Assembly: GCA_004431415.1 (NCBI GenBank)
Contig: QPMI01000526.1
Coordinates: 193,175-257,174, forward strand
Length of the DNA stretch: 64,000 bases
Direction: 5' to 3'
From: Cyanophora paradoxa CCMP329
Lineage: Eukaryota > Plantae > Glaucophyta
The notes under the pieces are model-generated. The model was not told the DNA's origin. It was given only the letters and a program-made list of their open reading frames with translations, and did no database searches. Position 1 is the stretch's first letter. Each line of letters opens with the position of its first letter. This document shows positions 21,262-64,000 of this stretch, piece after piece. A program made the position numbers and the translations under genes.

Positions 21262-21282
21262 GTTTCAAACATTCCTTGTTAT

Positions 21283-23386: not shown

Positions 23387-23438
23387 CTCTTATGTTTAAA
23401 ATACCAAAAGAAATTTTTAAAATGCTTTATTAAACAGA

Positions 23439-24338: not shown

Positions 24339-24374
24339 GAAATACTGTAGAATAAATTTGTCTCAATATTACAA

Positions 24375-29947: not shown

Positions 29948-29949
29948 GG

Positions 29950-31367: not shown

Positions 31368-31416
31368 TTTTATTCAGATTATCAGATTATTTTTATATGA
31401 AACAATCAATGAGGAA

Positions 31417-43300: not shown

Positions 43301-43347
43301 AGCGCTGCCCCCATGAGCGCGGTCTGCAGAGCAACGTGGCAGAATAG

Positions 43348-43604: not shown

Positions 43605-43643
43605 CTTTGTGCCCAAAGAGCGCTCTGGTGCGGCCTCATCCAC

Positions 43644-43979
43644 TTAATCTGGCTGCTTTTCCGAAACTGGAGTCTTCTCCTTTCTGAAACTTGATAGCAA
43701 GGACTTTCTTCTTTTCATTGGCTTCGGGATATCTGGGGGAGGCCACGACAATCTTCGGCCTTCAGCATCAAGCCAAGGTACAGGTGAATCAGTTCGAGTA
43801 AATGGAGAATTGGACCTAGAAGTCCTGGGTGTGTTGATAGGCGAAGCCTGAGCTTCTGGGGTGCGAGAGCCCTCAGTGTCCGATATTTCGAGGTTAATGG
43901 TCGTCTCGCAGCAACTACAATTCAATTTGCTGGTGACGTTGAGATGGAACATATCCATGAATTTTCGAAGCAAATCCAT
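43644..43979 (-). CDS. Hypothetical viral protein, 111 aa, with CSCC motif and S/P/R-rich tail
   Basis: Intact ATG ORF co-oriented with the structural gene cluster. Confidence 0.6.
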   Translation of the reverse strand: MDLLRKFMDMFHLNVTSKLNCSCCETTINLEISDTEGSRTPEAQASPINTPRTSRSNSPFTRTDSPVPWLDAEGRRLSWPPPDIPKPMKRRKSLLSSFRKEKTPVSEKQPD

Positions 43980-44017
43980 CTATTAATGGAAAAATATAAA
44001 AAAACAAAGGAATGCGG

Positions 44018-44842
44018 CTATGGAGCCGTATCGCTGCCGAATATAGGAAAATACCTGTTTGTACCAACATATTCTGCATATGTGTTCTGTTTAGCAATAG
44101 CATCGGTTCTTTCAGCATAAAGGATGCATTTGTAGATACCAAACCTGGTTGCTCTCACCAAGAACTGGTAGTCTTCAAGGCCGAAATTTACACCATGATA
44201 AGCGATCCCGAAATTATCATAAGGAGTTATTACCACCGTAATATTGGGTGTCCCACCTTCTACTTGACAGAGTGCATAAATATCTGGTGGAATATCGACT
44301 ACTACCTTATAATGATCACCAATTTCAACCAGAGAATCAACTACTGATGTTTGCTCATTAACAACGATTGGAAAGATCTTTATAATATACGGTGCATTCA
44401 TACCGGGGACATACGTCCGAATCCGCGTCAGATTGTCGATCGGGTTTGGCGTGTCGTTTACGAAGAGAGGAGCTCCAATAGCTCCGCCAACACGAAGACC
44501 ATCACCAATATATGCGCCGCCATTTCGGCAGTTAATAGCTCCCAAACGAGATTCGAAAGAATAAGTCGAAAGAGGGGCGCCATAACTATCTGGATCGCCA
44601 TAATTTGCGCTAAAATTTGCATTTGTGACAAGAAGTTTCGTTGTCTTAACTATACCATTATTTTTATCACACCGGAGTTCCTGCAATCTAAGTTTATGTG
44701 TAGATCCAAAGGTATTCATGGTTGGTTGAACCTCTGTTGATTGTAGACCTTCCACATCGTCAAAAGTAGCGTGTTGTAAAACGTGGGTAGCTGGGGCGGC
44801 GAGTGAGAGCTGAGCTGTAAGGATGCGTTCAATTTCAGCCAT
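44018..44842 (-). CDS. Putative virion/fibre-associated protein, paralogue 1 (274 aa)
   Basis: Shares QH..D.V.GL.STE, ELR.DKN.G.VKTT.LLV.NANF, GGA.IG.G.R and G.Y...RTD with 44866..45720. Confidence 0.75.
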   Translation of the reverse strand: MAEIERILTAQLSLAAPATHVLQHATFDDVEGLQSTEVQPTMNTFGSTHKLRLQELRCDKNNGIVKTTKLLVTNANFSANYGDPDSYGAPLSTYSFESRLGAINCRNGGAYIGDGLRVGGAIGAPLFVNDTPNPIDNLTRIRTYVPGMNAPYIIKIFPIVVNEQTSVVDSLVEIGDHYKVVVDIPPDIYALCQVEGGTPNITVVITPYDNFGIAYHGVNFGLEDYQFLVRATRFGIYKCILYAERTDAIAKQNTYAEYVGTNRYFPIFGSDTAP

Positions 44843-44865
44843 TTTACATTAAAGTAATATAAATT

Positions 44866-45720
44866 TTACGGAGTAGGATCGTCAATAACATCTGGCTCCT
44901 GGTAAAATCCGGTTGTAAAGATATCAGCAACATTCACACCACGAAGTGCCGAAACAGCTGCTATATCTGTTCTGAGTCCCATAATCATAGTATTGTAAAC
45001 TCCTACATCAGTGACAAACAGATCATAAGTAAATGTCAAATTGTTATATACACAATATCCCCGACCGAAATGATTTGATGCTTGAACAAAGAAAAGGTAA
45101 TTGTGACCTGGTTGATTGTTGTTTGCTCTGCACATCGAAAGCATTGCTGTGGGAAGAGGAATATTCCTTCTCACACGATCAGTTCCTGTAATGGAAACCA
45201 ACTCTGAATTTTCAAGAGTGACAGATGATGCAACATAGAAGTGAAGAAAAGGTTGCTGTGCAACTGGTGTATAGAACCGAATTCGTTGTGGATTTTCAAC
45301 ATTTTGTTCAAGGGAATCCGGGACATCATTGTATGCAATCGAAGAAGAGAGTTGACCTGAAATTCTGCAGCCACCGCCAATAAAAGCTCCTCCTGATCTC
45401 ACAGTAACAGCAGCAGAATTCTTATCGAAGTCAAGGGCTTTCAGATCAACACCATAAGCATCAGGGCCACCATTAGTTGGTTGGAAGAAGTTGGCATTAG
45501 ATACGAGTAGTCGAGTTGTTTTAACCACACCTGAGTTCTTGTCAGCTCGAAGTTCTTTTACTCGAATCATTGAGTTTTTGTCAAAAGAGTTACCATTCGA
45601 ATTAGGTCGTTCAGTGGATTCCAGACCGCGAACCTCATCATTGACTTCGTGTTGGCGAAAATGATTTGCAGGGGATCCAAGTGAATAGATAGGTAACTGA
45701 ACCCGATTATATTCGCCCAT
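44866..45720 (-). CDS. Putative virion/fibre-associated protein, paralogue 2 (284 aa)
   Basis: Tandem paralogue of 44018..44842. Confidence 0.75.
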   Translation of the reverse strand: MGEYNRVQLPIYSLGSPANHFRQHEVNDEVRGLESTERPNSNGNSFDKNSMIRVKELRADKNSGVVKTTRLLVSNANFFQPTNGGPDAYGVDLKALDFDKNSAAVTVRSGGAFIGGGCRISGQLSSSIAYNDVPDSLEQNVENPQRIRFYTPVAQQPFLHFYVASSVTLENSELVSITGTDRVRRNIPLPTAMLSMCRANNNQPGHNYLFFVQASNHFGRGYCVYNNLTFTYDLFVTDVGVYNTMIMGLRTDIAAVSALRGVNVADIFTTGFYQEPDVIDDPTP

Positions 45721-45776
45721 TGCTTATTTTACTAAGAAGGAAAGAAAAAAAAGTCGGCAGACAAGCCAAACTACCA

Positions 45777-46085
45777 TCAAGCCAAAGTGATTAGATTCGC
45801 TCCAAGGGCTTGGTAAGCAACAGAAAGAGCTTGAATATTGGCTGTCATTGCTTTGATATTGCTATCGCACTCAGAGTATTTAGCAACAGGATCACCATAA
45901 GCCGATTGCGCAAGGACATTAACCAAGAGGTTTTTATATTCATGAACAACTGGGGACAGTTTGTTAGTTTGTTGTATCGTTTTTTCGACAGTTTGTAGTG
46001 CTGCTACAAGTTTGATAGTATCGAATGCAAGAGCGACAGGCTCAGAAGTAGTGGAAGGAGATCCACCGAGTGGATACGTCGCCAT
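45777..46085 (-). CDS. Hypothetical helical viral protein, 102 aa
   Basis: Intact ATG ORF in the co-oriented cluster. Confidence 0.6.
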   Translation of the reverse strand: MATYPLGGSPSTTSEPVALAFDTIKLVAALQTVEKTIQQTNKLSPVVHEYKNLLVNVLAQSAYGDPVAKYSECDSNIKAMTANIQALSVAYQALGANLITLA

Positions 46086-46149
46086 TTATTATACTGAGAC
46101 ATTTTTATTACGGCAGTTAAGCAGCCTGACCGCAGGCGAGCTAGCTTGT

Positions 46150-49100
46150 CTAGCGACTGCGCCATTGGTCTATTTGATCTTGTAAACTCTTGCATTTCTG
46201 GGATAATTCTTTAACGGCTTCTATGAGAACAGGAACCAATGCTGTGTATTCAATTGCTAACAACCCATCCTTTCCTTTTCCAACAACTTCTGGTATCACT
46301 TTCTCCACATCTTGTGCTATTAGTCCTAAACAGGTTCTACCATTTTGGGTATCTTTTTTCTTGTAAGACACCCCTTCTAATCTTTCAATTGCTGGCAACG
46401 CCCCTGTTAGCTTCTTAATATCTGTTTTGTATCTCCTATCACTTGCAAGGTATTGTGTCCTTACCCAAAATGTCCCTACATTATCCAACGAAGCCATATC
46501 CCAATCATTTGCATCTCTCCACACACAAACATATGTTCCATGTCCTCTTATATATGTTGTTCCATCACTGGAAAAATAGAAACGGGAATAGCCTTCTGTT
46601 GATGCTAACCATGTGTTATGCGACCATACTGCTGTTCCTGGTTTACTGAACACATTATCCCAACTGATCATCCCATTTGCTGGTGCTGTTCTTCCTACTT
46701 CTTTTGTCCATCCAATCATCCCAATGTGACATCTCCCCTTTCTTGCAATAAATCGAATATGTGAGAAATTCGCACAAAAGAAGGATGTCCATGTTAACCC
46801 ATCATGCCAATTTGAATCGGCTACATTTGAAATATTCTGATAGGTATTTACTCGCATTATGTGATTCCATCTATTGTTTCGATAACCTCCAATATCGAAA
46901 TATCTGCAATTTGTCCAACAGAAATATTGGACATGACATGTTCGCATTCCACTGGGAACTTCCATTTGCATGTAGTCACCACTTGTGGTATCATTTTCGA
47001 TGTTACTATAAAATCCTTCTACTGGATTGTCTGTTGTAGGTTTCCAACCTGTTCCCCAAGATCCTATAAAATAAACAGTCGCACTATTCCATCCTGAAAC
47101 CACATCAAAACTGGTAATATTTCCGATTGAATTAGTGACATCTGTTAACGACAGATAAGATGTAGGAATAGTAGGTTTACTATAAACTTTATTCCAATGA
47201 ATAAAACCGGTGTGTCCACCATATGAACTACTATTAGCTCGATCGTGTGTAAAACCTATTCCCATAATGTGAACTCTTCCAACTTTGGGATAAATACGAA
47301 TGTGAGTAAATCGACCGGCAAGGAAGATTGGGACATTATTAATTCCATTGTGGTAACCGTCGCTATTGCCGTCATGTGGCTGATAGTTATTAACTCTCGT
47401 AATAAATACAGTTGTTGCATTACTACGGACTCCCCAAATTTCAAAATAACGGCAATTATACCATGGTAAATGTGTAAGGAATGCTGTCCCATTTACTAAT
47501 GCTGCTGGGATTGTGTATTGAATCCAAGTAGTTGTAGGAACTGCTGTATCATCGGATTCACTGTTATATGCATAACTTCCATAATTATATCCTGGATCCC
47601 AAGAGTTTCCATATCCAACTATCCAAGTTCCGCTCGATAACTGATAAGCGCCACCTGCTACTGTGTCATCAAAAGCATAACATTTCGGAACGTCATAACC
47701 ATTTCTTTTTAGTGTTGCAACATCTATGGTTGTTGCATTTATAGTAGTTGCTGTAATTGATGCTGCGCTTACACTTGTAGTGACATTTAAACCTCTTCCT
47801 ATCCATAAATTACCATTATTATATGATTTTAATAATGCTAAATCGGAGCCATTGCGAAACTCCACACATACATTTTCAGAGTTTCCATATCCTCGTATAT
47901 ATGTGCAATCATTATTACCGAACCAAAATCTTTCTATATTGTCTGTTGATTTTAACCATGTGTTAGTTGTCCATTTTGCTGTTGCTGGAAGGTCTGCGGC
48001 TGAGTAAAATGACGGTTTGCTAAATATATTATCCCAAGAGATCATGCCCAATTCATTATCTGTTGCTCTCTGTCTGCTCCACCCAAAAACACCTGTGAGA
48101 TGAATGCGACCTTTTCGACCTTGAATATATATCTTTGTGTAAAATTCGCAATTGATAGAAGTGAACAAAATAGTATTATTGGTTCCATCATTATTAACTG
48201 ATTGGATTCCTTGATAATCATTAACTCGTTTTAAGAAATGTTGATATCCATTCACAGTTTGCCCGTAAATATCAAAGTATCTACCATTATACCACGGCAT
48301 GTGCTGGATGTAAAACGATTTCATACCTTCTGGAACTGTCCAACGCATAAAACAAGCGCTACAATCTTCATCATTTTGTGGTGTTGTATAACATCCTGTT
48401 TGTCCGGTTCTTGGTGTCCATCCTAAGTTCCAATTATTTGCGCTCCTGTCTGTCGAAACCACATCTAATTGGTCGAAATCGTAACCTTTTGGTATTGTGG
48501 TTTCACCAATTTGTAGAGTGGTAGCATTCACAGTTCCTGTAATAGTTCCACCTGTTAGAGGTAGATAATTAGCAAGAGCTGACGTTAATTCGGTATCTGT
48601 AACAAAATCTGTAACAGCTAATTGTAATTCTGTATTTGTAACATAATCTTTGTTTTCTAAATAATCATCTGTAACAACACCGGAAATGGTGGTATTGTGT
48701 AAGTTTTTCGCCGCCATTCTCTGATTGACTTCTAAGGCGCCACCTGATGTTGTTTTTATCCACGCCATCTCACATTTCCCGTGATCATCTGTGGGTTGTC
48801 CCACAACAGGAAGGTAGTTTACAACTTTCTCCCTTGTGAAAACTATCTTAGGTCTTGCTCCATCATATGCGCTTTGATCTGTTACATTTACTTGTATCGC
48901 TGCTGAAAAATCCGCTACTTGTCCTGTTTCACCCGGGTGATAATTCGTGACATAGATACTGGGGAAAGTATCATTAATTCCTACATTAAAATCGCCACTA
49001 TACACTCCATTTACGATTGGATCCCTGGGTAATCTTACTGCAAGAGTTCCCACCATCGGTGTGCCGTCTTGACCTGTAAATGAACCATTGAGACTAACAT

Positions 49101-51698
49101 AATGATCATTCAAAATAGCCTTTCAGGTGTATTACTCGATTGGTAAAGTGTGACTCCATTAAAAACGTTTCCGATTGCATTCAATTGGGCAAAAACTGGC
49201 TGTTCGTCTATTTCGTCCCAATTGTGCCTATGTGCAAAATCTGAGATATCCACTTTTGTGTGGGTATGTGCAAAATCTGTAATATCTGCTTTTAGGTGAG
49301 TATGTGCAAAGTCTGTAATATCTGCTTTAAGGTGGGTGTGTTCAAAATCTGTGATATCTGCTTTTGTGTGAGCATGTGCAAAGTCTGTAATATCTGCTTT
49401 TAGATGAGTATGGGCAAAGTCTGAGATATCTGCTTTTGTGTGAGTATGGGCGAAATCTGTAATATCCGCTTTGACGTGTTCATGTGCGAAATCCGTAATA
49501 TCGGCTTTGACGTGTTCATGTGCGAAATCTGTTATTTGATCTTTTGTGTGAGTGTGGGCAAAATCTGTAATATCGGCTTTGACATGAGTATGTGCAAAAT
49601 CCGTAATATCTGCTTTAACATGTTCATGGTCTGAGGGTGGGAATTTTTCGGGTGCGTCAGGGATATTATCCCATCTAAAATAATCTTCTGTTACGACTCT
49701 TGAAATATTTTCGTTATGAATGTTTTTCGCTGAGGCTCTCTGATTGATTTCTAAAAGACCCTCAGGAACTCCACCATTATAATTTGTTTTAATCCATGCT
49801 ACCTCACATTGTTTATAATCATCGCGATCTCCTAAAAGTGTTTCTGCTGCGAGTTGCTCACGGCTAAATATTAATTTTGGTCTTGATCCGTCTAAATCGC
49901 TTACATTAGTCACATTAATTTGTATTGTTGCATCTTTGTTATCATAGTTTGCTGGATCAGATGGTAGAGAAATAAATCCTGCTGTCATCGGGACATCATC
50001 GGGGTAGTAGTTTGTTAAGTAGATTCCTGGTTTTGTATTTTTAATTTCAATTCCACCACCAAGTGGTAATATTACATCCCTTGTGGGTGGTCTAATATAC
50101 AATTCACCGTCCATTGTGGTGCCTGCATCGATTCCCTGACGATTCACATAATAATCGTTTAATTGTAATCTTTCTGGTGTGTTTATATTTTGGTAGAGAC
50201 TCACACCATTGTTAATATCTCCTAATAATACATTTCCTGCTGATGCAAAAGTGGGCTGCTCTCGTATTTCGCTCCAAATATGTAAATGGTCTTCTGGCGG
50301 AAACTCAGGTGGAATTCCATCGATATCGCCCCAATCATGCCTGTGATCTTCAGGTGGATATTTCTCAGGTTTACCCAAGATCTCATCCCAATCATGGTTG
50401 TGATCCTCTGGTGGATATCTCGCTGGTTTGTTGTTGATCTGTTCCCAATCTGGAAAGAACTCAAAAAGCTCCGGTTGTAATCCATCTGGTAAAAACTCCT
50501 CATGGGGTTCATAAGGTTGCTCATAATCCACAACTGGTGGTTCGAGACCATCTGCTAAATATTCCTCATGGGGTTCATAATTCTGTTCATACTGATACTC
50601 TTGTGGATCTAAACCATCGGGTAAATACTCTTCCTCATTTGGGTCGAATTGATCATACTCATACTCTTGCGGGTCGAAACCGTCAGGTAAAAACTCTTCC
50701 TCATCTGGGACAAATTGGTAATCATCAAGCTCTAATATATCGATTTCAGGAGGTAAATACTGTTCATCTATTTGTTTTTTCGGTTCGAAGATAGGTTTAT
50801 TGCGAACTTGCTCCCAACTGACAATATGTTGACCGAAAGGAACTGTCTCATCAGCAACTCGCTCTCGACCAGGTCCATCCGGGATTGGCGGCTTTGGTAA
50901 CCCTGGAAGAGGTGGTATAGGGACAATAGGTCCGAAGTAGTAGTTGAAAATGTTGATAACCTGCTCTTCAGTGCTAACCTTCTTACCATCCTGATAAATA
51001 TTAGTTCCATGAATATTTCTCCACTGCCTGGTGCGAAGCCCTAGGTCATATCTATCATGCAATGCCGGGAGCAGGTGCCTGTCAGCCTCAATCAAGATAG
51101 AGCCGAAGGTGCATCCAGGAATATCGAACCTGGTGGCTGGCTCGGTATCGATTTGATTTACATCAAACCCGAAAAGAAGATTTGCTTCTCGTGCATCGGT
51201 ATATAGTAGATCCCAGGGGAACGGCTGAATTTGTGATGCAAGCACTGATATTGCAGCATCTTCGCCAAGGAGAATTCGCCCAGTGATTTGAGCCGCAGTT
51301 TTGTTTGCGACATCATTTGATTCATCAATTAGACGTAGAGCTGATGTATGGACCCCTCTATCATTTTGGAGCCTAAATATCAATCTACCAGAATCATACT
51401 TGGAGACTGTGCCTGAGGAGGCAATTCGCAGGTGTCGTGGCAACGCCCTGGACCCAATAATTTCAGCAACAAAGTTCTCAGTGGGACCAAGACAGAATCT
51501 CTGTGCAATATCTGGGGCACCAACGTGAGAGTTCCGCAGAATTAATGCAGCTGGTCGACTAAACTCGGTCCTGTGGATGTCACGATCAGCATTGAAGTCT
51601 GCCAAGATGCTTCCAAAAACGCGAATATTAATGAGTCGATCATCAACGAAATCTGGAGATCTACGAAGTGGCACTGGCTTCTTCAAGATGTAGGACAT
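46150..51698 (-). CDS. Giant tail-fibre-like protein (~1850 aa if one frameshift at ~49112 is corrected) with C-terminal peptidase S74 intramolecular chaperone
   Basis: S74: SDRRYKTDI..GLIAQDVEKVIPEVV..IEYTALVPVLIEAVKEL. Fibre motif YLPLTGGTITG; HxH repeats. The junction TPERLF/LNDHYV mirrors the internal copy TPERLQLNDYYV. Confidence 0.85.
49233..49628 (-). repeat. 11 x 36-bp coding repeat HxHxKADITDFA
   Basis: Eleven 12-aa units counted in the translation; 396 bp = 11 x 36. Confidence 0.92.
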
Positions 51699-51722
51699 TT
51701 TTATATAAGCCCCCTTTTAAAA

Positions 51723-53204
51723 ATGAAGGTCATTCTCTCACTATCAGGTGGAGGTGCTCGTGGCATAGTCATTGCCCGAATTCTACAGCGGATTGAGGCG
51801 ATTACTGGGAAAGCAATACCACAGCTGTTTGATTTCTTTGCAGGCACCTCAACAGGGGCAATAATAGCGGCCGGATTGGCGATCCCATCAACTCCAGGCT
51901 CTGTTCTTGCTTACCGATATTCTGCAGGTGATATCTTGAGTCTATATCAAACGAACCTACCTGTAATATTTGCAAATCCGAGATCACTCACAAGCTTGCT
52001 CTCAGGAAGCCGCTATGATGCAAACCCTCTAGAGTCGGTGCTCACAGACGTTGCCCTAGACTACACAATTGCAGAATCGACCAAAGACATATTAATTACA
52101 GCGTTTGATACAGTTCGGATGCAGCCCGTAGTTTTCACCAAAGATGGGCCATACTCGAGCACGCTGATTCGTGATGCAGTTAGAGCATCTTCTGCAGCGC
52201 CAACATTCTTCCACCGAAGGTTCTAGGAGACAAAAACCTTGTTGACGGGCAATTGCCTGTTTGAATAATCCCTCAGTTGCTGCACTCAGCCACGCCAGTA
52301 AAATTTACGATGCAGAAGATCCAATTGTTCTTGTGAGCATTAGCTGTGGTGAAGTCCAAGCCAGTGAGCAATTGACTGCAGGCTTTTCGAATTCGGAGAC
52401 GTCAGGCTGGGGCGCACTGGGCTGGATCCTATCCCTCTCAGGCAGCCCAATCATTTCTATGCTAATGGCTGGTAGCGAGCTGGAATCGCACTTTCAAATG
52501 CAGGAACTGCTTCCAGTTGATGCGGATAGGAATCTAACAAGATACTGGCGTTTAAGTGTTCCACTACCAGCTGCAGTCATGAGCAAGCTTGACGATGCCT
52601 CCCATCGAATATTTCTTATTTGATTTCCACGACTGATTTATGGCTGAAACAAACCGAAATAAATGCTAAAATAAATGCACTCTGCAGCTTTCTACTGGCG
52701 AACTACGACCTACTGAACGATGAGAGACTAATCATATCGTCTACTTTAACAGTTGAGCCGCCATTTGATGTCAACTGGTTTATAATTCCAGATGCAAACA
52801 TTACAAGCAACGACTTTGAGGAATTGCACCCACCTTCTCATGTGCGACCCAACTCAACAGGGTTCCAAGGTGGCACTCTACCTAATCCCTGGATTAAAGT
52901 CGAATTTCCAAAGCCTTTTGAGCTACATCAAATCATTATGTATGGGCCAGCCTTTGCTGCCGGAGTCCTATTTAATTTCAGCATTCTGACCAACTTAGGA
53001 TATGTCCAAGATGGGAGGCTTTTTGAAAATACGGTCCTAGCAAATGTGCTTGCTGCAAACCCATCTATGACAGGCTTCGATCTAATGCATAGTGACTCGC
53101 ATTTGTTCACCCCACAGGTATATAACTATGTGCAAATTATAACAAACGAATTTATAAATGTGAATGCATTCCGGCTTGATTTCCGGGGACGTTACATTAA
53201 TTAG
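51723..53204 (+). pseudogene. Patatin-like phospholipase, frameshifted, probably fused to a C-terminal discoidin/galactose-binding-like domain
   Basis: LSLSGGGARG, FAGTSTG, RASSAAPTFF, VDG..NNPS, YWRL; tail PWIKVEFPKPFELHQIIMYG; pieces 51723-52226, 52261-52623 and 52620-53204. Confidence 0.85.
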
Positions 53205-53347
53205 GCGGCGGCATGAATGCCCAGGAAATCAGAGAGAGTCCAAGACGTGTTGGAATAGTTCTGCCAGATTTATCTTTCTCCCAAAATGGTGCTCCATTAC
53301 GCCTCCCAGTCGCCTCTTAATGTAATTCTCTCTTCGCTGATACCAAG

Positions 53348-53652
53348 TTGGGCGCAGCCGAGGCAGCTTGTCTGCCGACTGTTTCTGGTTGCGAGCTCCT
53401 TTTTGATTCCGTCAGGACCAAATCGGCGGTAAGCTTGCAGAAAACCTAGGTTTGTTTGGGCGCAGCCGAGGCAGCTTGTCTGCCGACTGTGCTTGGCTTA
53501 TCTCCAATCGCAACAAGTGATACTTTTTTGTCCCGCATCAACGGTAAGTACTTTTCAATCTGAGCTATGGGCATCAACTGCGACATTTTTTATATATTGT
53601 GCCAAGAAATAAAACGGGGCGGAGGCACAGCCGAGACTGCTTGTCTGTCGAC
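53348..53652. repeat. Three copies of the conserved hairpin motif in the convergent intergenic region
   Basis: Identical 35-mer ttgggcgcagccgaggcagcttgtctgccgactgt at 53348-53382 and 53456-53490; variant at 53628-53652. Confidence 0.9.
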
Positions 53653-53655
53653 TTT

Positions 53656-54574
53656 TCAAATCAGTTTGAACTGGAGCTCCCCAGACCATGGCAATCCATT
53701 CAGTAATACATCATCACCATCTCTGTCTACAATGCGCAGTCGCAAGGAAGTCAGCACAAGACGCTCTTCGATGGGATCCATTCGCTTTGATGATCCTGAT
53801 TTATATAAACGAATTTGCCAACGTCCTGACTCATTTGAATTCGAGCAAGCCGTAGTTGCACATTGTTTTGGCCCCACGGCGAAGCTTTGAAGCAAATGGT
53901 CGAAGCTCTTCACAGACTAGGAATAGATACTGGTCGCTGTTCATGTCAATTATCTTTGGAAATTCGACAGCATAACCAAGTGGCTCACTCCGCATTCTTT
54001 CGGTGAAGTCCACGCCATATTCAGGGTGTGAAGGTGTTACTGGAATGCCAGCAACTTCGAGATATCGCTCAGCTGCAGTTACTGATCTTTGTCCTCCTTC
54101 AATCACGATAGGAGACAGCTGGAGGGGCTCATTTCGGTTCAGCCCTAGCAGATTCGATAGAGCTTTGAACTGGCAGGTCACTGTGCAGGAACGGTTGCAA
54201 TAAGCAGACATTTTCAGTGTCTCTGGGTCCCGAAACAATTTGAAATATGCTATTACGATTCCCCCCAGTTCAAACTTAAACGATAGGCCAAAGTTGTAAA
54301 GATCTGTTTCGCCCATATTTGCAGTAGTAATTATACCAGGCTCAAAAACTGCCAGATTTTCCGTCCAAATGTTGGGGAAGGTGATCGAAAGATACTCATC
54401 TCTAATGCTCGTGTAAAGGCTGTTTGCGAACTCACACTGGGTAAGTCGAACAGCAACTGGATTGATTATAGGTTCATTTATTTCTAGCACAAAGTTTGCC
54501 TCTGAATCGATTGGCCTTCTGTCTCTACTGTCAAAGCTGAGCCTGACGCAGCGTCGATGCTTGTCTTCGACCAT
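53656..54574 (-). pseudogene. Minor capsid (penton) protein 1 of element 2, frameshifted near 53890
   Basis: LSFDSRDRR..NFVL..IINPVAVRL..FANSLY; the C-terminus LRLRIVDRDG..LNGLPWSGELQF lies in ORF 53656..53913. Confidence 0.8.
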
Positions 54575-54601
54575 TTTTATTCTCTAACTGATATAAAAAA
54601 G

Positions 54602-55557
54602 ATGCCGACGGACTACGTCTGCATTGCAAGCCACCAAGCGGATGAGCTGACATCCACCTCAAAATTTAAAGTAAGACTGCCTAAAGTTTATCAGGATGTA
54701 AAAGCTGTGCGCTTGGTATCAGCTGAGATCCCCAACACAATGAGCACAGTTGATGCACTCGATCCAGCAGAGGATTTAGTGTTTGACACGTATATATATT
54801 GGTGCAAATATGATCCTGCAAATGAGGGACCCGACCCACCTCAGCCAGGTTTTGGAGCCTGGAATAACATTACAATTCCATCTGGAAATTACGACGTCAC
54901 CTCGCTTGTGACAAAGATAAACGAAAGGTTGACGGGGACTGGTATCACGTGCACGTATAATTCAGCAGTTAAATCAATAGGGTTCACAGCTAGCTTCGAG
55001 TTCTTTATTGCTCTGATGTTGGCACCGAACCTGGGTGGGCGGAAATCAGAAACTACCAGGCTGTTGCTAGGGCTCAGCGAACTGCAAAGCTGCTAGGCTT
55101 GCGATCAATTCTACCGATTCGGTCAAAGACATTATCTATAAATACTGAATATATAGCAGGCGCTTATGAGCCTGATGTCACTCCCGATGATCATGTGCTA
55201 CTTCGCATTCCTGAAATTGGTGACCTTGTCAGTATGCCCAATACTTCAATTCCTGGCTTTTTCTCAAAGCTCAGCATTCCCAGCGCCCTCCGTCCAGGCG
55301 AAACAGCCTACTATGATTCAACTGAAGCAACTCCTTTGTATAAGTATGTTTATTCAAAGCTGGACCTGTACTCTGTGACTATTGAGATATACGATTTTAT
55401 GCAGCGAATCGCTGATTTAAATGGAGCTCCTGTGTCATTTATTCTCGAAATTCGTTATGGTCCTGACGAACCCAATGGTGATGTTGTTTACGAACTTGCA
55501 AAACTTCAGCTACAGAAAAGATCGAAGACATATCCTTGGATCAATTCGTCAAACTGA
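54602..55557 (+). pseudogene. Minor capsid (penton) protein 2 of element 2, broken near 55090
   Basis: VCIAS..KFKVRLPKVYQDVKAVRLVSAEIPNT, IPSGNY, HVLLRIPE, VTIEIYD..DLNGAPVSFILEI. Confidence 0.8.
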
Positions 55558-55601
55558 GCTAAGCGGCAGAATTATTTTCTTTCACAGCAATTATATATTC
55601 G

Positions 55602-56978
55602 ATGGATGTCACTCAAAATTTGCAGCGGCTCGGCCTCAAAGAGCTCCTGACAACTCCGCAGGAAGCGAAGGACTTCTTTATGAACAATGAGCTTATGTTG
55701 GGTCTAACGAGCCAAACCAAGCCTGTTCGTGTTGTTGTCAACCCAAGCAATGACTATGGAGACTGCTTCGGTAAACGAGTCACCTACTTCCTTCCCAGAT
55801 ACAACTTCCTTCAGGGGCTCGAACTCCAGTTTACCCTGCCCGAGTTGACAGCATTTACTGGTGACACTGACCTGGTTCGCACTGGTTATTTGCGATCGGT
55901 TGGTGCTCTCGTAAAGCGAATCGAAATCAAATATGCTTCCTACAGCTACATTGTCCCCGAGGACTGGCTTGTTCACAGCGCTCTGATTTTCAATGATGAT
56001 GCTCAGCTTAAAAAGAAGTACCGATCCGGTGGCTGGCTCCATGGAACACCACCTCAGGGGAGCAATCGCACTGGAGGTATTTTCAGTGTAAAAATCCCCT
56101 GTCCCTGGGAGGGTTCTGTGCTTCCGATTGGTGCTCTATCTGGCGAGGTTTCCGTCGAGGTTTGGTTCCGTGATCGTGCCAGGGCTTCGTCGAAACCAGC
56201 TATGGTGGTAGGTTTGTAACAGAATATGCCATAGGCGGTGATGCTTCTAAAGAAGATGGACTTGGGAGCGTGGAGCTGCTGCTGCATCCCCTGCAAACAT
56301 CGGCCAGAATATAACTCCCAATGTTCTCAGTGTCACCCCTGCCAATCGGAGCTTTCGAATCCAAAGATTATTGCTCATTGCATCAACGTTGATGAGGCCA
56401 CTTTTGCCCAGGTGATTGAGAAAGTCAAAACGTCTGGAATCGCAATTCCCGCTACCGATGTCGGCTGGGTTGATGCTGATTCAATTACTTATGCAGGTGC
56501 TGGTGCGCCAACCCGGATTAATCTGTCTCAAATCAGTGGACTTTGCTACGGCCTGTTCGTTAGCATTCGCAAGCAGCCAAACATGAACCAAACTGATGGA
56601 AAACACAGTGTCCTCAAAACCGAGGCTAATGCTCGCGATATCACTATTTCCTGCGAATTGAATGGACAGCGGCTTTATTCAAATGAGCCTGTCCCTCTCT
56701 TGCAAGGTGCCGAACTCATCGCTGATGTCTTCAAGTGCTCCAATCTCGACGCACCTTTGAATAGGTACGTGCTGACTGGATTGCCATTTTGCATTAGTGG
56801 GGATAAATCGATTCGAAATGCTGCTCAAACTGGTTTCGTAGATCTGACGAACTCCAGCAGCTGCTTCCTGAATATCATGAACCCTGCTGCTTACGATGCT
56901 AACAACAAGATTTACGTCCAGGTTCGAGCTCTCCTTCACACTGTACTAATTGTTGATGCTGCGGGTCTCGTAAGGTGA
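55602..56978 (+). pseudogene. Major capsid protein of element 2, frameshifted ~56180-56340
   Basis: LKELLTTP, YFLPRYNFLQGL, YIVPEDW, VKIP..LP, GIAIPATDV, LSQISGL and GFVDLTNSSSCFL match the element 1 MCP. Confidence 0.8.
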
Positions 56979-57006
56979 ACCTCTAATTTCACCGACTATC
57001 TTTTTG

Positions 57007-57700
57007 ATGGATGGGTCAGACGAGCTCGCACAGTTCCAGCCTAGCGATATGAGGGTACCATTCAAAGCCCTATTTATATCGAAGTCCAATAGCGGCAAGT
57101 CTTTCTATTGCACAAAGCATTTACTTAGACTGTTATATCCAAAGATTAATCGAGTCGTTGTGTTTACCGCACCAAATTCAACGGCGAGTATTCTGCAATA
57201 ACTAAAGAGCTTTACGACGATTTTCAGCCCGCCATTGTTGCAGAAATCATTGATTCACAGCGCAATTTGATTGAAAACAAAAAGAAAGCGCCGCAGATAT
57301 TGCTTGTATTGGACGATCTTGTTGCTGCCTCTGAAACTGTTGATCTGCGAAATAGCAAGACTGTAAATCGACTTTTTACGCAGGGCCGTCATTTTAATAT
57401 CAACGATTCTTATGACCCAAAAACAGCATTGAGTCAATCTATAAGATCGAACTCGACTATTGTTTTTTCTTCAGTTATTCAAATCACACCGAACTGGAGG
57501 CAATTTATAGAGAGTTTTCACACCTTCCAAAGGATGAGTTCTTAGCCTTGTTGAAACTGGGCGCACGATTATCAGTGCTAGTCCTGGATGGAACAATATG
57601 ATACTGCCTGGTACGTTGAAAGCTGTGAAGATAAGAGTTTTCGTTTCTCTAAATGGCTAAGACAAGAAGAAGAGTCTAAAAAAGAAGAGTCTTCGCCTGT
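57007..57700 (+). pseudogene. A32-like packaging ATPase of element 2, frameshifted (3' end approximate)
   Basis: SKSNSGKS, ILLVLDDL, LFTQGRHFNI, IRSN across ORFs 57004, 57267 and 57588. Confidence 0.88.
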
Positions 57701-57743
57701 TCATCCAAAAAGAAGCGTTTTAAATCTTATCTTAAGAAAGAAG

Positions 57744-58372
57744 ATGGCAAAAGGATTCCTAAGAAGGGATATCGTGAAAGACGCAAGGTTAATGTTGTTG
57801 AACCACTAGTTGAAAGTGGGTCGACTGAAGGCGCAGCTGTTGCTAATCCTAGCGGGGAACTAGCTAGTGACCCCAAACTAAATGCACCCGTAGCGAAAAC
57901 AATTGCGTCCGCAGCAGCTAACGCAAGTGCGGTTGACGACCGACAAAGCCAGGCTAAAACTGTAAACGAAATGCAGTCTGATATTGATGATGATGCTGCT
58001 AGAATTATCCAAGCCATGGCATCTGAACCACGTTATTCAGGGCCAAAAATCAAGACAGCAACAGTATCAAAGAGTCAGATCGAGGAACTAACAGCTAAAT
58101 TGCGAGATCTCGAGGCTCGATCAGCTAATATCGAATCGTATGTAAAAGACAAGCAAGAAAGAGCTAAGATCCGCGAGATGTTGCGAAGCGAGATTTTTAA
58201 GCACAGACCTGTTGACGTACCGGATTTGCGGTATCTGAAAAATGAAAAAATAAAGGCTTCACAAGTTCTCGATTCTGCCGAAGTAAAGCCAGCAACTCCC
58301 AACGTTTCTGAACCAAATTCTACTGGGTCGCAACTGAAGGGTGCTCTTGGTGGGAGACGGATTCGTCTGTGA
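57744..58372 (+). CDS. Hypothetical viral protein with coiled-coil (probable 5' frameshift)
   Basis: ORF 57971..58372 is open upstream to ~57790; the ATG at 57744 (MAKGFLRR) is in another frame. Confidence 0.55.
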
Positions 58373-58889
58373 AATTTAGACGCAGGAATGGACGGTCCTC
58401 AGCTGAAGTATGTTCTAGAGCGTAAGCATCGCGGGCTCTCGCTGCTGCCTCAGCAGTAGTAAAGTATCCGATGTGCTTTTTGCGACCATTTATCCGATAT
58501 TCCGCCTTCCATTTACCACATCTCTGATCGAAGTAAACACCAATGAATCCTGATGTGTTATTTCGGAACTGTCCTCGGTTCAGCTGTTGCTGCCGCTTTG
58601 TTGCCAGTCGAAGATTTTCGCGGCGGTTATCAAGCTTGTTCAGATTTATATGATCAACAGTTAATCCGTTCTCTAATACGCCGCTGATGTAGTTGTGCAA
58701 GAACACGGTTTTTCCATTGATTAGGGTTCGAGCATATCCATACATCAAACACCAGCGGAATCCAAGCACTCGCACAGCATCTTCTGTGAAACAAGGGCGT
58801 AGGCGATAATTACTCGACGATGATTGCGGATTCCACCAAGCGCGAAGGATAGCAACAGCTCCTTCAGAGACATCTGGAATTGTCTCCAT
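58320..58889 (-). CDS. HNH homing endonuclease with C-terminal AP2 DNA-binding domain
   Basis: VDHINLNKLDNRRENLRLAT; NNTSGFIGVYF..KWKA..HIGYFTTAEAAARARD. Confidence 0.93.
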   Translation of the reverse strand: METIPDVSEGAVAILRAWWNPQSSSSNYRLRPCFTEDAVRVLGFRWCLMYGYARTLINGKTVFLHNYISGVLENGLTVDHINLNKLDNRRENLRLATKRQQQLNRGQFRNNTSGFIGVYFDQRCGKWKAEYRINGRKKHIGYFTTAEAAARARDAYALEHTSAEDRPFLRLNFTDESVSHQEHPSVATQ

Positions 58890-59293
58890 ATCTCTTCTTT
58901 ACAATCTGAGATTGCGATCTCTTTAAGACAAGTCCAAAATCGGGCAAATCTGTAAGATCTTCTACAGTTGGTTTCCTCTCTCGCTCTACATATTCAAGCA
59001 TCCCGTTTACTGTTGACAGATCGTTCGATTGACATATTTCAAAGCACGCTGCAATTGCCTCTTATCGTACTCACGCAGATGTTCCCAAGACATTAGCCAT
59101 TCGGCATATTTCGGATCGGTTAAAACAACCTTCAAATGAGTCTCACCGCGGTACTTTCCAAATCGAATTGTTTCCTGCGGCCATTCTTTGAATTATATCT
59201 CGGATTTTATGTTCGAAAATTTAACGCAACACAAACCTGCGATTTATGCCATAAAAGATTTCGCACCTTGTTTGTGACGAGAAAATCAAAGAA

Positions 59294-59580
59294 ATGGATG
59301 TTGAATCATCAACTAAACAGCGTGGTCGCAAACCAATTGTTGTCACCCCTGAAATCGCTGCTGCACGAAAAGCAAAGCGTGCTGAGAGCCATCGCCGTCG
59401 TTACAACGAAGATCCAAGAATTTCGCAGACGACACATAGAAGCCAGCTCGAGGTACCAGCAGAACAACAGCGAGAATCATTTAGAGGCCAATCGCCGCTA
59501 TCGCAGTCGAATTTACGAAAAGTTAGCGCTTCTAGAGTCCCTCCAACAATGTGTTTGTTATAGCCGTTTGACTAGCCTTC
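59294..59580 (+). pseudogene. Small basic putative DNA-binding protein, frameshifted; related to 25489..25752
   Basis: RGRKP..RYNEDP then, in the adjacent frame, EFRRRHIEAS.. Confidence 0.55.
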
Positions 59581-60690
59581 GGTCTTTGTTCTCTCTAATA
59601 TTCCACCAGGATTTAACTTGACAGTTCCAGCTGTCGCAAGTTGCTTTTTGAAGGCGAAGCAGCTTCTTATTTTTTTCAATGTCCACTCGATCTAAGTTCT
59701 CTCGCATCAGATTTAGCTCCTTCTTTCGTCGTTGCATTGCTCTCTGTGCTGCATTTCCCGCACGACGTTCCTCTGAATCTACTGGGACCTTTAAAAGTTG
59801 CTGGTAGTTCACCGCTTTGTTGTAGCCCGAAAGCGTAATTTGAGCAGCGGTCCAAAGCCACCTATCTCCATAATCGTATAGATTTTTTGAATACGTCGGC
59901 TTTGAAGATTTGTCGAAACGTTTTTTCTCTAGCTGCACCCGCACGCGATCGCCTACTTTAAATTCGTCCTCCTTCAGGTAGTGTTGCTGCTCGTACACTT
60001 CTCTCTGGTAGTCGTTGCGTGCAATAGTTTCCTTCGGATTCTCTGCTGCAGCGTTTGGCGATGTACCAATTGACCTATGCTCTGACGAATTATAATTACG
60101 CACAAATGCGGGCAGCTTGTCGATGTACCTATCCGTGTCATATGCCTCCATATACCGTGCAAAATTCGCTTCAAAGTTCCATTAAATCTCTCTATTTTGC
60201 CGTTGGCTTGCGGTCGATGCGCTTCCACAGCATTGTGCTTTAATTCCCTCAGCTTCTAACAAACTACCAGCTGAAGCTTTAAACTCCTGATCTGTCTGAA
60301 TAATATCCGGCTTGGCTGGAAACTATCTATGAGTTTCCGTAGTGTTGAAAGGAGTGTACTTCGCTCTTGTTCTTCATTGGAATGCTGTAGGCTTTCCGAG
60401 TCACTACGTCCACTGCGTTCATTATAAAGTGAATGCCGCGGTTTGTTTTGGCGTATGGAGTCACGTCGATTAGATCTACTTCGTAGTATATTTCTCTGCT
60501 TTGTCGTATGTTATACTTGTGAATGGTTTCTCTTTCTGCGGCCTCGCAAATCTTTGCGCTGTCGATAATTTCTCCAGCACTGCTCTTACTCTGGCAACTG
60601 GTATTTTCAACTTCTTGGCAATACGTGTGGCCGACTGAAGCCCTATTTCTGGATCATAGTATACCTCCTGAATTCGGGCTGATTACTCAT
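59558..60690 (-). pseudogene. rve integrase of element 2, frameshifted
   Basis: YYDPEIG, EVDLID, VDVVTRKAY, IQTDQE, ANGKIERFNGTLK, YNSSEHRSIG, FKVGDRVRV..FDK. Confidence 0.88.
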
Positions 60691-60699
60691 GGGGAACCG

Positions 60700-63600
60700 T
60701 GCTGTAATAGTCATCCGAAATTATCTTTCGCTTTGTGTATTCCGTCTTATTTAATACTCTGCTGAAGGAATCTGGATGATGAACTAAAGCCAATCCCTGC
60801 TCGCGTTGCTTTCCATTCGGTTTGAAGACACGAGAGCAAGTTTAGACTCAATTGTGCACTCTGGCTGATACCGGCTCTCGAGCAATCTGCTTGAACGCTT
60901 CCAAAGCGACCCGTGATTCGAGGTGCCCCTTCCTCATCTCCGGATCACTCGAAAAGCCAGTTCTCTTCTATCCAGCTCTTCGGTATTCCTTTCTTACGCG
61001 CACATGCACGTCAGACTCCCCATTTTGCCTTCACAAAACGACAGCAGTAAACCTTGGGTCCAACGAAATACGCCTCCACGATGTGCCCTCTGGATAGTAA
61101 TCTATTAGTTTTCCCAGCTCGTTCTCGCATATCGCCCTGTTTGCCTCCTCTTCTGACATCCCCTCCACAGAGTAAGGCCGCTTCATGCAATCAGTCACCA
61201 GCTCTGCAAATTTCTGTGCACCACAAGCGAGTCTGTGTCTGTGTAAAACGGCATGGCTTCGAGTCTTTTATAAGAGTTCATCTTTACTAGGAACCTGTCC
61301 ATTATCTCGCGACTGTAGGACAGAATAAATGCTCCAATAAACAGGGCTTCGACACACAAGCATCACGTTTGCTCTCAGGTACTTCATATGTCGCATACAT
61401 CCGTGTTTCACTCTCAATTTCGATGTCTGTAATCGTAGACGTCCGCTGTAGCTCCTTAAATCGGCGGTAATTAGAAACTAGCTCCGTTGTTTCAATCACG
61501 GGGTCGCTGGGCAAATTTCCCGTAAAGACCATTTAATTGAATCTTTGCTGTTGCGTACTGAGCTGTTTCCCTTCCTTGAACGTGCTTTCATACAGTATAA
61601 CTTCTCGATGTAATCTTTAAACATTCTCTCCTTTCCCTCAAATAAATACACCTCATGAACCTCTGTTATTTCAACCCCAAGCGCTATCGCCCTGTAGATA
61701 TCAACCGATGTATACATCTCGCGCTCGATCGGTTTCAGCGTTCGACCAGCCCAAATTCGACTCGTGACGAGGTAGCGGAGAAAGCACAAGGTCCTGAGGA
61801 ATTTTCGCACTGATGTTCGCAATGAACAGTTGCTCCATTTTTCGACTTAGCATGAACTTTTCTAAAACGTTCTAATGCCTCCGGTTCATTGATTAGCTTA
61901 AATTTACTGTAGGAAACTGGTTAAAGTACATCGCGGTCGGATATAGAGAGACCACATCCAGATCTACCAAGTAATCATCTGGACCCTTGAGACAAACTTG
62001 CGTTTGAATGGTAAACAGCGACCTCCGTAAATTGCTCTGCGAAAAATCTGATCTTCGGTGTATTTTGGAATTGCAGCTCTGTCTTCATCAGCTGCGGTAA
62101 TTCACATTTATTCCAAATAGCTCAAAGCTCGTACTCGAATATTTCATGTATAGCTCCGTCATTGATCGCACGTCGGCTCTAAGATATTCTCCCCATTCCT
62201 CCTTGTGTGTCTCAACGTCTGCCCACGTCTTGATCTTGCGATGGTCAAAGTCTCCTTTGATTGTCGTGCAGCCGTAGTCCTTTCCAGCCTGTTTTAGTGA
62301 ACCTTGAATATGTAGGCATGGGTCAAAACTCGTCAACTCTCCTCCTGCTGACGTCTTCCATTTCATACTCTTAATCTTGCCCGAGGAGCGCATGACGTTC
62401 ACCTGGCTGTCTGGCCGATTCTCAATCAGCCATCGGTATATGAATATCAGATCAAAACCCGCACCGTTGTAAAATACTACTGTGGTCTTCTCTGCCCAAG
62501 CATCCAGCCATTGCATGAATTATTTAATGTTTCAGGACCGTAAAACATCTTGGTTCCTACAATTTCGCCCTTGCAATTATGTCTGTGTCAACAGCATAAG
62601 GAACGTGGGTCTTGCCATCACAAGGAAATGTTTCAAAGTCAGCCCTATCACGCTATCCATCGCTGTAAATTCACTCTCCTTTTCGCAAGGGTAATCTTTC
62701 TTCCAATAACACCTTTGTTTCTGATGGCGCAACGCATTTGTTTGTGTGATCTTCAATTGGATTGTAGGCGCAACGACATCTAGCACAAAACTGACAGGTT
62801 AGCTTGTGTCTTTCCAGTTCGAACTGCATTTTCCCGCAGGCACTGCACTTCTCCATTCAGTCGTTCTTTTATCCTTAATCAGGTAGCAGTGCACATCGAC
62901 TATACAAAGGTGAGCACGTTTTTCAAATCCTAGATCGGTCGCAAAAAGCAGCTTAAACTTTCCTTGCGAAAACTCAAAAACGCTGGTGTCTATTCTGTAA
63001 AAAGCGCTCAGCTTTAATCGTTGGCACATCAACTGATATCATTCCTCGCCGCAGTCCTAGCTGTGTTCTAATCCCTCCGTAGTCCAGTCTCTGAAGTTGC
63101 TTGTAAATTCGATCAAGGCTTATTCTTCCAGGGTTTAGCTTCACATATTCAAAACACTCAAGCACACAGTTGTCTTCTGGTGAAATCGGACAGTAGATCT
63201 TATTCATGGTCAGGGCTTTGCCATTGAATGGGAGTTTGGTACGTTTCCAAGTGCGCCTGCAGCGTTCTCTGCAATGAGCACCTCTATTTTCACTACTGGC
63301 CAAGGTCGTTGTCTTCATATGGCTGCTGCGCTAGCATCCATTGTTCCATCTTTTCAGCCAGATTTGACAAGAGCGACTGCATTGTGCCCTCTTCGATTGT
63401 TGCTAGTTGAGTGCGATACATGCGAAAGTTATCGAAATGAAACCGAATTAGGACGCTTGATCCTATTTTCTCTGGAATTCGCAGCTCTCTCAGAAACTCA
63501 ATCGTGATCTCTTTAACCCGCTCAGGTATTGGAGTCGGATCAATATCCAAAATATCCTTGGTAAATAACAACCCCGGATATGCATAGTGAGTATAATTTA

Positions 63601-63931
63601 ACACGGTATCACCTCGACCTGTCTCGCGAAATAAATTCGAGATCCCATACTCTACAATTTCATCAAACTCTCGCGTGGCTTCAATTCGAGCATTGCGTTC
63701 GTTCTCAAAATGACTTGTTATCCATGACTGGTACAAAGGGCGCTGCGGCCGGTTCGTCTGTCTAAGTCTAAGCAATGTTGAAAGATTAGCTCGAAGATTT
63801 TGTGTGTGGGTTCCCCTCTGTGGGTCTGCTAGTCGCATCAGTGTGTTCAAATATGTTCCGTTAATGTACCTAAGATTGTGTAGCTCCTGCGCTAGACTCC
63901 GAATTTCAGCTCTCAGATTGTTCCTGTCCAT
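60700..63931 (-). pseudogene. polB: Protein-primed PolB of element 2, heavily frameshifted
   Basis: EDNCVLEC, VHCYLI, FYNGAGFD, KGDFDH, YLRADV, IYGGRC, motif A DVVSLYPTAM (~61940), motif B LNGLYGKFAQ (~61520), motif C TDTDSL (~61235), LGPKVY. Confidence 0.88.
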
Positions 63932-64000
63932 TATGAATAGGTCTCTACAATATTGGATGGCCGAAAACTTTTTGGCATTTAATCGCAGACAATCTCTGAT

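What the first reader, a model, noticed from the sequence alone, without database searches (positions are those of the whole stretch)
43644..63931. Second, larger Polinton-like virus: same capsid module, different replication module, rich entry/attachment cargo
MCP, ATPase, penton and a small basic ORF are homologous to element 1. Its pPolB lacks the EndoVII-like RDHDH insertion and has different motifs (DVVSLYP, LNGLYGKF versus DANNLYG, MNNSVFGK), and its integrase is DDE with a YYDP N-terminus. It adds ~10 kb of fibre, fibre-like paralogues and lipase. Inference: one morphogenetic lineage has swapped replication/integration modules and spans minimal to cargo-rich genomes within one host.
Basis: partly seen in the sequence, partly recalled or inferred. 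Interest (0 to 1): 0.8.

Follow-up and report, generated by a model that had tools for sequence, protein, structure and literature searches.

The report
Algal provirus pair with unrelated polymerases
Two DNA viruses inserted side by side in what is likely the genome of the alga Cyanophora have distantly related capsid and packaging genes but polymerases from different lineages, likely because one lineage swapped its polymerase, a pattern already published for this virus group.

Summary
Real, but a known pattern. Element 2 (about 43,342 to beyond the window end, at least 20.6 kb, right end not in view) is an endogenous Polinton-like virus. Its capsid protein, ATPase and penton-like genes are homologous to those of element 1 (11.3 kb, perfect TIRs, 6-bp TSD), but only at 23-36% identity, so it is not the 'same' module. 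All quoted motifs are present. The trees are incongruent: the ATPases are sisters (98), element 1's pPolB nests among group-1 Polinton pPolBs (100), and a clade of the two pPolBs is rejected (p-AU 7e-75). An integrase swap is not shown: both are rve/DDE-type, p-AU 0.13. The cargo (9.6 kb) is likely one long S74/PTR fibre, a patatin and two paralogues whose fibre nature is untested. The host is likely Cyanophora paradoxa. Both capsid types are in Bellas 2023, this alga's PLV gene content (several replicases, fibres, lipases) is tabulated in Bulzu 2025, and replicase swapping is reported as common in two 2026 preprints. The scan noted a similar case on other DNA of this genome (e1-10595630). What remains of interest: element 2's pPolB fits neither Polinton group in my limited sample.

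The parts
43342..64000 (.). Element 2, endogenous Polinton-like virus; left end inferred, right end beyond the window
   Evidence: GC 43% versus 62-64% in host flanks; sequence turns AT-rich at about 43,342; no inverted partner of the left end in the window
43350..43603 (.). Subterminal tandem array, 57 bp x 4.5
   Evidence: TRF score 310
43644..43979 (-). Orphan ORF, 111 aa
   Evidence: no Pfam or PHROG hit
44018..44842 (-). Paralogue A (274 aa), possible short adhesin; fibre nature untested
   Evidence: 33.6% to paralogue B, E 4e-39; no family hit
44866..45720 (-). Paralogue B (284 aa), predicted C-terminal beta-sandwich at low confidence
   Evidence: model mean pLDDT 36; best Z 5.1, lectin and pyocin-fibre hits at Z 4.2-4.5, inconclusive
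45777..46085 (-). Orphan ORF, 102 aa
   Evidence: no significant hit
46150..51698 (-). Phage-type fibre, likely one gene of about 1,850 aa broken near 49,111: PTR repeats, internal duplication, C-terminal Peptidase_S74 chaperone
   Evidence: S74 E 6e-16; PTR E 4e-6; tail-fibre PHROGs; the two ORFs share a 40%/170-aa duplicated block; part of the run contigs differ by an indel at 49111
51723..53204 (+). Patatin-like phospholipase with a C-terminal extra domain; three frame breaks
   Evidence: PF01734 E 1.5e-20; GGGARG and GTSTG motifs; VDG motif at a break; the C-terminal domain has no Pfam or PDB hit
53348..53657 (.). Three copies of a 35-bp intergenic repeat
53831..54574 (-). Penton-like gene A (label recalled from PLV minor capsids, no family hit)
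   Evidence: 27.6% over 145 aa to element 1's 23439-24338, E 1e-5
54557..55557 (+). Penton-like gene B, one frame break near 55,040
   Evidence: 26.5% over 113 aa to the same element 1 gene, E 0.006; 0 of 200 shuffles as high
55602..56978 (+). Double jelly-roll major capsid protein, three frame breaks
   Evidence: 64% to intact C. paradoxa protein P0001; the P0001 model matches PBCV-1 MCP at E 8e-15
57007..57680 (+). A32-like packaging ATPase, frameshifted
   Evidence: 33% over 165 aa to element 1's PF04665 ATPase
57680..58372 (+). Basic ORF, up to 230 aa, possible core protein (inferred)
   Evidence: no significant hit; not homologous to element 1's basic ORF beyond chance
58320..58889 (-).
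   Evidence: HNH_3 E 1e-10, AP2 E 4e-6; phrog_99 E 3e-38
59291..59621 (+). Small basic ORF, broken; weak similarity to element 1's 25489-25752
   Evidence: 16 of 38 identities, guided alignment
59558..60690 (-). Retroviral-like (rve) D-D-E integrase with YYDP N-terminus; five breaks
   Evidence: rve_3 E 3e-5; read-through score 168 versus at most 22 for 5 shuffles
60690..63931 (-). Protein-primed PolB, about 1,080 codons, nine breaks in the catalytic part alone
   Evidence: PF03175 E 3e-11 and 1e-8; read-through score 216 versus about 19 for 5 shuffles; 80% to C. paradoxa fragment P0127
20487..31773 (.). Element 1 (comparator): 11,287 bp, 357-bp perfect TIRs, 6-bp TSD GAGGCG; ATPase, MCP, penton-like, group-1-type pPolB, rve-type integrase; no fibre or lipase found
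35093..41961 (-). Non-LTR retrotransposon (endonuclease, RT, RNase H) separating the two viruses
   Evidence: Pfam E 3e-8, 1e-15, 8e-11

Best explanation
Element 2 is an integrated Polinton-like virus whose capsid and packaging genes are distantly related to those of neighbouring element 1 but whose polymerase comes from a different lineage, likely because the ancestor of element 1 long ago took up a group-1 Polinton-type polymerase. Likely working cycle (inferred from gene content and from what is known of Polintons): the integrase excises and inserts the linear genome; pPolB copies it from protein-primed ends; the A32 ATPase packs it into a double jelly-roll capsid with two penton types; the S74-matured trimeric fibre binds the algal surface; and the patatin helps breach a membrane at entry. 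Element 1 is a reduced relative without that entry kit. Shown here: gene content, homology, tree incongruence for pPolB. Inferred: direction and age of the swap, all functions, any activity.
For: Capsid: DJR fold. A profile from two element-2-type MCPs hits element 1's MCP at E 4e-24 and none of the ORFs from 140 other loci below E 0.98. An HMMER search of 1.8 billion proteins with the N-half returns 4 proteins only. ATPase sisters at support 98, path 1.44. Element 1's pPolB is 43-51% identical to the best 120 of at least 7,965 relatives, the named ones from animals, and sits inside that clade at 100 with nearest path 0.88, while element 2's pPolB has no row nearer than 3.5. AU rejects their union. 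One 16.6-kb run contig matches both element 2's ATPase region and its pPolB region, so this pairing recurs in a diverged copy (tables 5 and 8). At several breaks all listed contig depth in runs X2, X3 and X5 lacks the window's indel (e.g. 52208, 55040, 59252; 59836, 61739), so the family is likely intact and the breaks are likely assembly errors.
Against: Outgroup sampling is thin and motif-selected: 13 other ATPases, 4 other integrases, no labelled PLV references, and no outgroup for the MCP tree. Only quick trees finished (SH-aLRT, no bootstrap). Element 2's pPolB is a long branch that moves between trees: beside group 1 at 84-90, beside two phage-type enzymes at 96. If it is truly basal to group 1, unequal rates could explain part of the contrast. 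The integrase test is not significant (p 0.133). The element-2 ATPase read-through used a profile containing element 1, a mild bias toward the sister result. Contigs collapse the family, so decay of this particular copy is not excluded.
Confidence: 0.78

Rival explanations
1. The two elements are separate virus families that invaded the alga independently; their capsid similarity is only the deep kinship of a broader unclassified lineage, and the polymerase difference arose outside this host.
For: MCP identity 23-30%, path 2.3 changes per site; environmental P0006 is about equally close to both (scores 189 and 214); gene order differs; no DNA similarity. Bellas 2023 Table S4 splits this alga's 366 MCP hits into two 25%-identity clusters (272 and 94).
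Against: It is compatible with the swap rather than opposed to it; it changes only where the swap happened. The closest named relatives of both capsid types are in the same alga.
Confidence: 0.4
2. No swap: capsid and polymerase were inherited together, and element 2's pPolB merely evolved much faster (plus sequencing errors), hiding a sister relationship.
For: Element 2's pPolB joins the group-1 clade at 84-90 support in two trees; its read-through has nine breaks.
Against: Element 1's pPolB is nested inside a clade with animal Polinton enzymes, behind a stem of 1.7-2.9 changes per site; AU p 6.7e-75; the join is flagged as long branches meeting and element 2 goes elsewhere once group 1 is removed; the HMMER search with the capsid N-half returned only 4 proteins, where abundant animal Polinton capsids would be expected if related.
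Confidence: 0.08
3. Element 2 is a dead, one-off chimera formed in the chromosome (or a misassembly) by joining a virion module to a transpoviron-like pPolB-integrase unit at the HNH-AP2 gene.
For: Many frameshifts; the HNH-AP2 gene lies exactly between the modules; Barth et al. propose such tandem and endonuclease routes.
Against: All 30 bins are covered in 4 of 4 runs; a diverged 16.6-kb contig holds the same ATPase-pPolB pairing; GC is even across the junction (42.6% versus 44.6%).
Confidence: 0.1

Closest known systems
Cyanophora paradoxa endogenous PLVs, MCP clusters 21 and 29 ('new', no group name) of Bellas et al. 2023 (PMC10120064; passages and supplementary Tables S1, S2, S4 seen in part)
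   Same: Table S2 lists gene_49165, nearly identical by eye to element 1's MCP, and gene_47449, whose printed first 400 residues read as P0001, 64% identical to element 2's MCP.
   Different: The parts I saw catalogue capsids only; the main text does not name Cyanophora. Which cluster number belongs to which element was not determined.
Glaucocystophyceae PLV set in Bulzu et al. 2025 (PMC12220804; passages and Table S6 seen)
   Same: 156 elements: protease 0, PF03175 49, general PolB 21, primase COG3378 38, SF1 helicase 34, rve 85, HNH_3 40, Peptidase_S74 37, lipases 89. The text calls S74 fibres ubiquitous, reports PTR and patatin-discoidin fusions, and pPolB/MCP incongruence.
   Different: The pPolB tree described there covers cryptophyte and chrysophyte enzymes plus references; I saw no placement of the glaucophyte pPolBs. 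Zenodo files were not visible.
Polisuvirus replicase mosaicism (Barth, Ha, Aylward, bioRxiv 10.64898/2026.10.13.758929, parts 1-4 of 5 read; Bellas and Sommaruga as cited there, bioRxiv 10.64898/2026.06.19.733378, passages and section 9 read)
   Same: Replication modules reassort against capsid modules; pPolB stays paired with DDE integrase; tandem integration and nearby endonucleases are proposed routes; one example, EVE_QPMI01_83, bears the accession prefix of this alga.
   Different: Their most striking cases have 70-100% identical capsid modules with different replicase classes; here the capsids are about 25% identical and both replicases are pPolBs, a weaker case.
Group-1/Beta versus group-2/Alpha Polintons (adintoviruses; Starrett et al., PMC8502044, passages seen)
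   Same: pPolB followed by rve integrase, TIRs and 6-bp TSD (element 1); element 1's pPolB falls with animal enzymes of the group-1 type (group label recalled from motifs); Alpha/Beta polymerase-capsid mixing already reported.
   Different: No cysteine protease gene found in either element; capsids not detectably related to Polinton MCPs; element 2's pPolB is rejected from my four group-2-like rows (p-AU 0.003).

Membership tests
Polinton-like viruses (Polisuviricotina, broad sense) | Double jelly-roll major capsid protein | tested here: met
   Model of homologue P0001 (pLDDT 54) matches PBCV-1 and other DJR MCPs at E 1e-14 to 1e-17
Polinton-like viruses (Polisuviricotina, broad sense) | A32-like packaging ATPase | tested here: met
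   Element 1 PF04665 E 3e-14; element 2 33% identical to it
Polinton-like viruses (Polisuviricotina, broad sense) | Single jelly-roll minor capsid (penton) | tested here: inconclusive
   Two candidate genes homologous to element 1's; no Pfam or PHROG hit; not folded; label recalled
Polinton-like viruses (Polisuviricotina, broad sense) | 15-40 kb genome with TIRs and TSD | not testable with these tools
   Element 2's right end lies outside the window and no genome is held; element 1 has both, at 11.3 kb
Polintoviricetes (Maverick/Polintons) | pPolB plus rve integrase | tested here: met
Polintoviricetes (Maverick/Polintons) | Adenain-like cysteine maturation protease | tested here: not met
   No protease among element 1's 9 or element 2's 31 scanned ORFs; element 2 is incomplete at its right end; 0 of 156 in Bulzu Table S6
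Polintoviricetes (Maverick/Polintons) | MCP of the Maverick-Polinton cluster | tested here: not met
   No Pfam DJR-like hit for the window's MCP pieces although Polinton locus L126 hits PF21738; the profile does not find L126's MCP; Bellas lists the clusters as new
Group-1 (Beta) Polinton pPolB | Placement inside the group-1 clade, EndoVII-like insertion | tested here: met
   Element 1 only: support 100, PF02945 E 0.008. Element 2 lies outside and lacks the insertion
Group-2 (Alpha) Polinton pPolB | Placement with LNSLWGKF-type enzymes | tested here: inconclusive
   Element 2: AU rejects grouping with 4 such rows (p 0.003), yet two of its three best phmmer hits are such rows; long branch, small unlabelled sample
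Eukaryotic preplasmiviricot pPolB (TP-vOTU-Exo-Palm; Krupovic et al., 10.1101/2024.03.18.585575, passages seen) | N-terminal TP and vOTU domains | tested here: inconclusive
   Cys and His motifs visible by eye in element 2, but profile scores are at shuffle level (16.5 versus max 17.9; 20.0 versus 18.5)
Virophaviricetes (virophages) | Virophage-type MCP and cysteine protease | tested here: not met
   No protease found; virophage MCPs rank 48th and 50th in the fold search; Bellas counts 0 Cyanophora hits in virophage clusters
Aquintoviricetes (PLVs in the ICTV sense) | MCP/ATPase placement with TsV/PgVV-type viruses | not tested
   No labelled Aquintovirus reference sequences were obtained

The most novel reading that the evidence does not exclude
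The glaucophyte elements form an unclassified class-level capsid lineage in which element 2 keeps a third, deep-branching pPolB type close to the tectivirus-like root, while element 1 is a stripped 11-kb satellite that captured an animal-type group-1 polymerase and borrows fibre and lipase from cargo-rich element-2-like helpers in the same genome: a virus-satellite pair inside one algal chromosome, with the HNH-AP2 gene marking the exchange point.
Probability: 0.12. Interest if true: 0.65.

Novelty: new member of a known kind. Interest (0 to 1): 0.3.

Why it matters
As shown, it adds a worked example of capsid/polymerase incongruence in a glaucophyte, an early branch of the plant lineage whose PLVs were counted but, in what I could read, not placed. 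If element 2's polymerase proves to be a deep third lineage, it would bear on how eukaryotic protein-primed polymerases arose from tectivirus-like ancestors. A cultured host with many near-intact copies would let induction and helper dependence be tested.

Tried and rejected
No whole genome is held, so other copies and the right end could not be recovered. Word-limited search with element 1's MCP C-part: 0 of 547 candidates. The search for related loci in viral contigs found no relatives for element 1's MCP, the MCP alignment, an element-2 pPolB fragment or element 1's pPolB. The ESM Atlas gave no result. Paralogue B versus phage genomes: no match; its model is too poor and the fold search inconclusive. 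The domain after patatin looks discoidin-like by eye (recalled) but has no Pfam or PDB hit. P0003 is a chance repeat match and was left out. No RNA holder was listed. Contig depth: summed depth over 54.0-57.3 kb is 3.5-5.2 times that over 59.3-64.0 kb in 4 of 4 runs, which would fit more capsid-module than polymerase-module copies; contig depth cannot rank genes and overlapping short contigs inflate it, so it is not counted as evidence, and no loose end marking an alternative replicase appeared among the 24 shown of 595. The careful pPolB tree did not finish; quick trees were used (47, 25 and 22 rows; 17 of 120 group-1 homologues and 28 of 94 motif-bearing locus pPolBs in the largest). Rejected: 'integrase of a different kind' (both rve-type); 'two fibre genes' (likely one broken gene); virophage (no protease, capsid unlike); homology of the two long basic ORFs. 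Literature searches for a description of these two elements; none found in the listings, which were not all read (Haro et al. PMC12721341: abstract and outline only). bioRxiv supplements and Zenodo files were not visible and may already place these elements.
Full report
Setting. The window is GC-rich eukaryotic DNA (62-64% GC in the flanks) with two AT-richer islands. The first, 20487-31773, has 357-bp perfect terminal inverted repeats and a 6-bp target duplication. The second begins near 43,342, just before a 57-bp tandem array, and runs off the window. A non-LTR retrotransposon lies between them. The best database relative of element 2's capsid N-half (P0001, 71%) and of its polymerase exonuclease piece (P0127, 80%) are EukProt proteins; P0001 is named as Cyanophora paradoxa. 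Earlier notes on this genome name the same alga. The host species is therefore likely, not proven.

Observation. Capsid, ATPase and penton-like genes are homologous to element 1's, at 23-36% identity, with no DNA similarity. Corrections: there are two penton-like genes; the two fibre ORFs are likely one gene broken near 49,111; an HNH-AP2 endonuclease sits between the virion and replication modules; the small basic ORF match rests on 16 of 38 identities from a guided alignment; and element 1's integrase is also rve-type, lacking the YY-P start and with Asp at the third catalytic position (alignment). Most core genes are frameshifted. At several breaks all listed contig depth in three of four laid runs lacks the window's indel, so assembly error is likely, though contigs cannot clear this one copy.

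Capsid module. A model of P0001 (mean pLDDT 54) matches double jelly-roll capsids. A profile of P0001 and P0002 finds element 1's MCP at E 4e-24 and nothing else below E 0.98 among 2,918 ORFs. In a 15-row ATPase tree the two elements are sisters (98, path 1.44). In a 5-row unrooted MCP tree they are 2.32 apart, and P0002 is nearer to element 2. So they share a lineage, but a deep one.

Replication module. Element 1's pPolB core is 43-51% identical to its best 120 relatives, the named ones from corals and molluscs, and nests among them at support 100. Element 2's pPolB, read through with X at nine breaks, is a long branch with no row nearer than 3.5 changes per site. A clade of the two is rejected (p-AU 6.7e-75), and so is a clade with four group-2-like enzymes (p-AU 0.003). 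Its place is unstable: beside group 1 in two trees, and beside two phage-type enzymes, one from a PRD1-like contig, when group 1 is removed. Each integrase scores higher against Polinton-like locus L129 (292, 295) than against the other (173), but holding them together is not rejected (p-AU 0.133). The polymerase replacement is thus supported and the integrase replacement is only suggested. The short distance from element 1's pPolB to enzymes found with unrelated capsids points to element 1's line as the recipient; that step is inferred.

Mechanism. From gene content and established Polinton biology (Krupovic et al., passages), element 2 would excise and insert through its integrase, replicate by protein priming, package with the A32 ATPase, attach through the S74-chaperoned fibre and use the patatin at membrane entry. 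No maturation protease was found. None of this activity was tested, and no RNA holder was listed. One diverged 16.6-kb contig carries both an element-2-like ATPase and pPolB, which argues against a one-off chimera.

Comparison. Bellas 2023 lists both capsid types from this alga and counts 366 capsid hits in two unnamed clusters. Bulzu 2025 tabulates 156 glaucophyte elements with several replicase types, 85 rve, 37 S74 fibres, 89 lipases and no protease, and calls S74 fibres ubiquitous. The element works like a Polinton but fails two Polintoviricetes features (capsid cluster, protease), so it is best filed as a PLV of an unnamed capsid cluster.

Verdict. Observation partly confirmed, interpretation partly supported, new member of a known kind, interest 0.3. 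The open points are the placement of element 2's polymerase and whether the 11-kb element 1 depends on a helper.

Noticed in passing
window 20487-31773: Element 1 is only 11.3 kb, below the usual 14-40 kb for PLVs, with intact pPolB, integrase, ATPase and penton-like gene, one break in the MCP near 23,316, perfect TIRs, and no fibre, lipase or protease found; its integrase has Asp at the third catalytic position.
   Followed up: partly
window 58320-58889: An HNH-AP2 endonuclease lies at the border of the virion and replication modules, near where summed contig depth steps down in all four runs; depth not counted as evidence.
   Followed up: partly
window 53348-53657 and 45748-45766: Three copies of a 35-bp repeat between patatin and penton-like gene A, and a 19-bp inverted partial copy upstream of paralogue B; run contigs join 56968 to 53346 and 53384 to 57031, as if other copies carry the motif between MCP and ATPase. 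Possibly a promoter or terminator element.
   Followed up: partly
window 5967-9990 and 16061-19830: A roughly 10.1-kb-spaced duplication of GC-rich host DNA at 85-95% identity; its ORFs have no Pfam hit.
   Followed up: no
window 35093-41961: Non-LTR retrotransposon with endonuclease, RT and RNase H, its 5' side about 1.4 kb from element 2's left end.
   Followed up: partly
window 31005-31367: Element 1 carries a 120-aa protein with two DUF5710 repeats (E 2e-15).
   Followed up: no
P0002, P0006: Capsid relatives outside the named alga set: a Logan protein (41% to element 2's MCP, similar by eye to a third Cyanophora type in Bellas Table S2) and an ENA protein from an 11.9-kb contig, about 30% to both.
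   Followed up: partly
L133, L137, L140: Three viral contigs with 1,040-1,270-aa pPolBs and A32-like ATPases that form their own well-supported clade in both trees.
   Followed up: no
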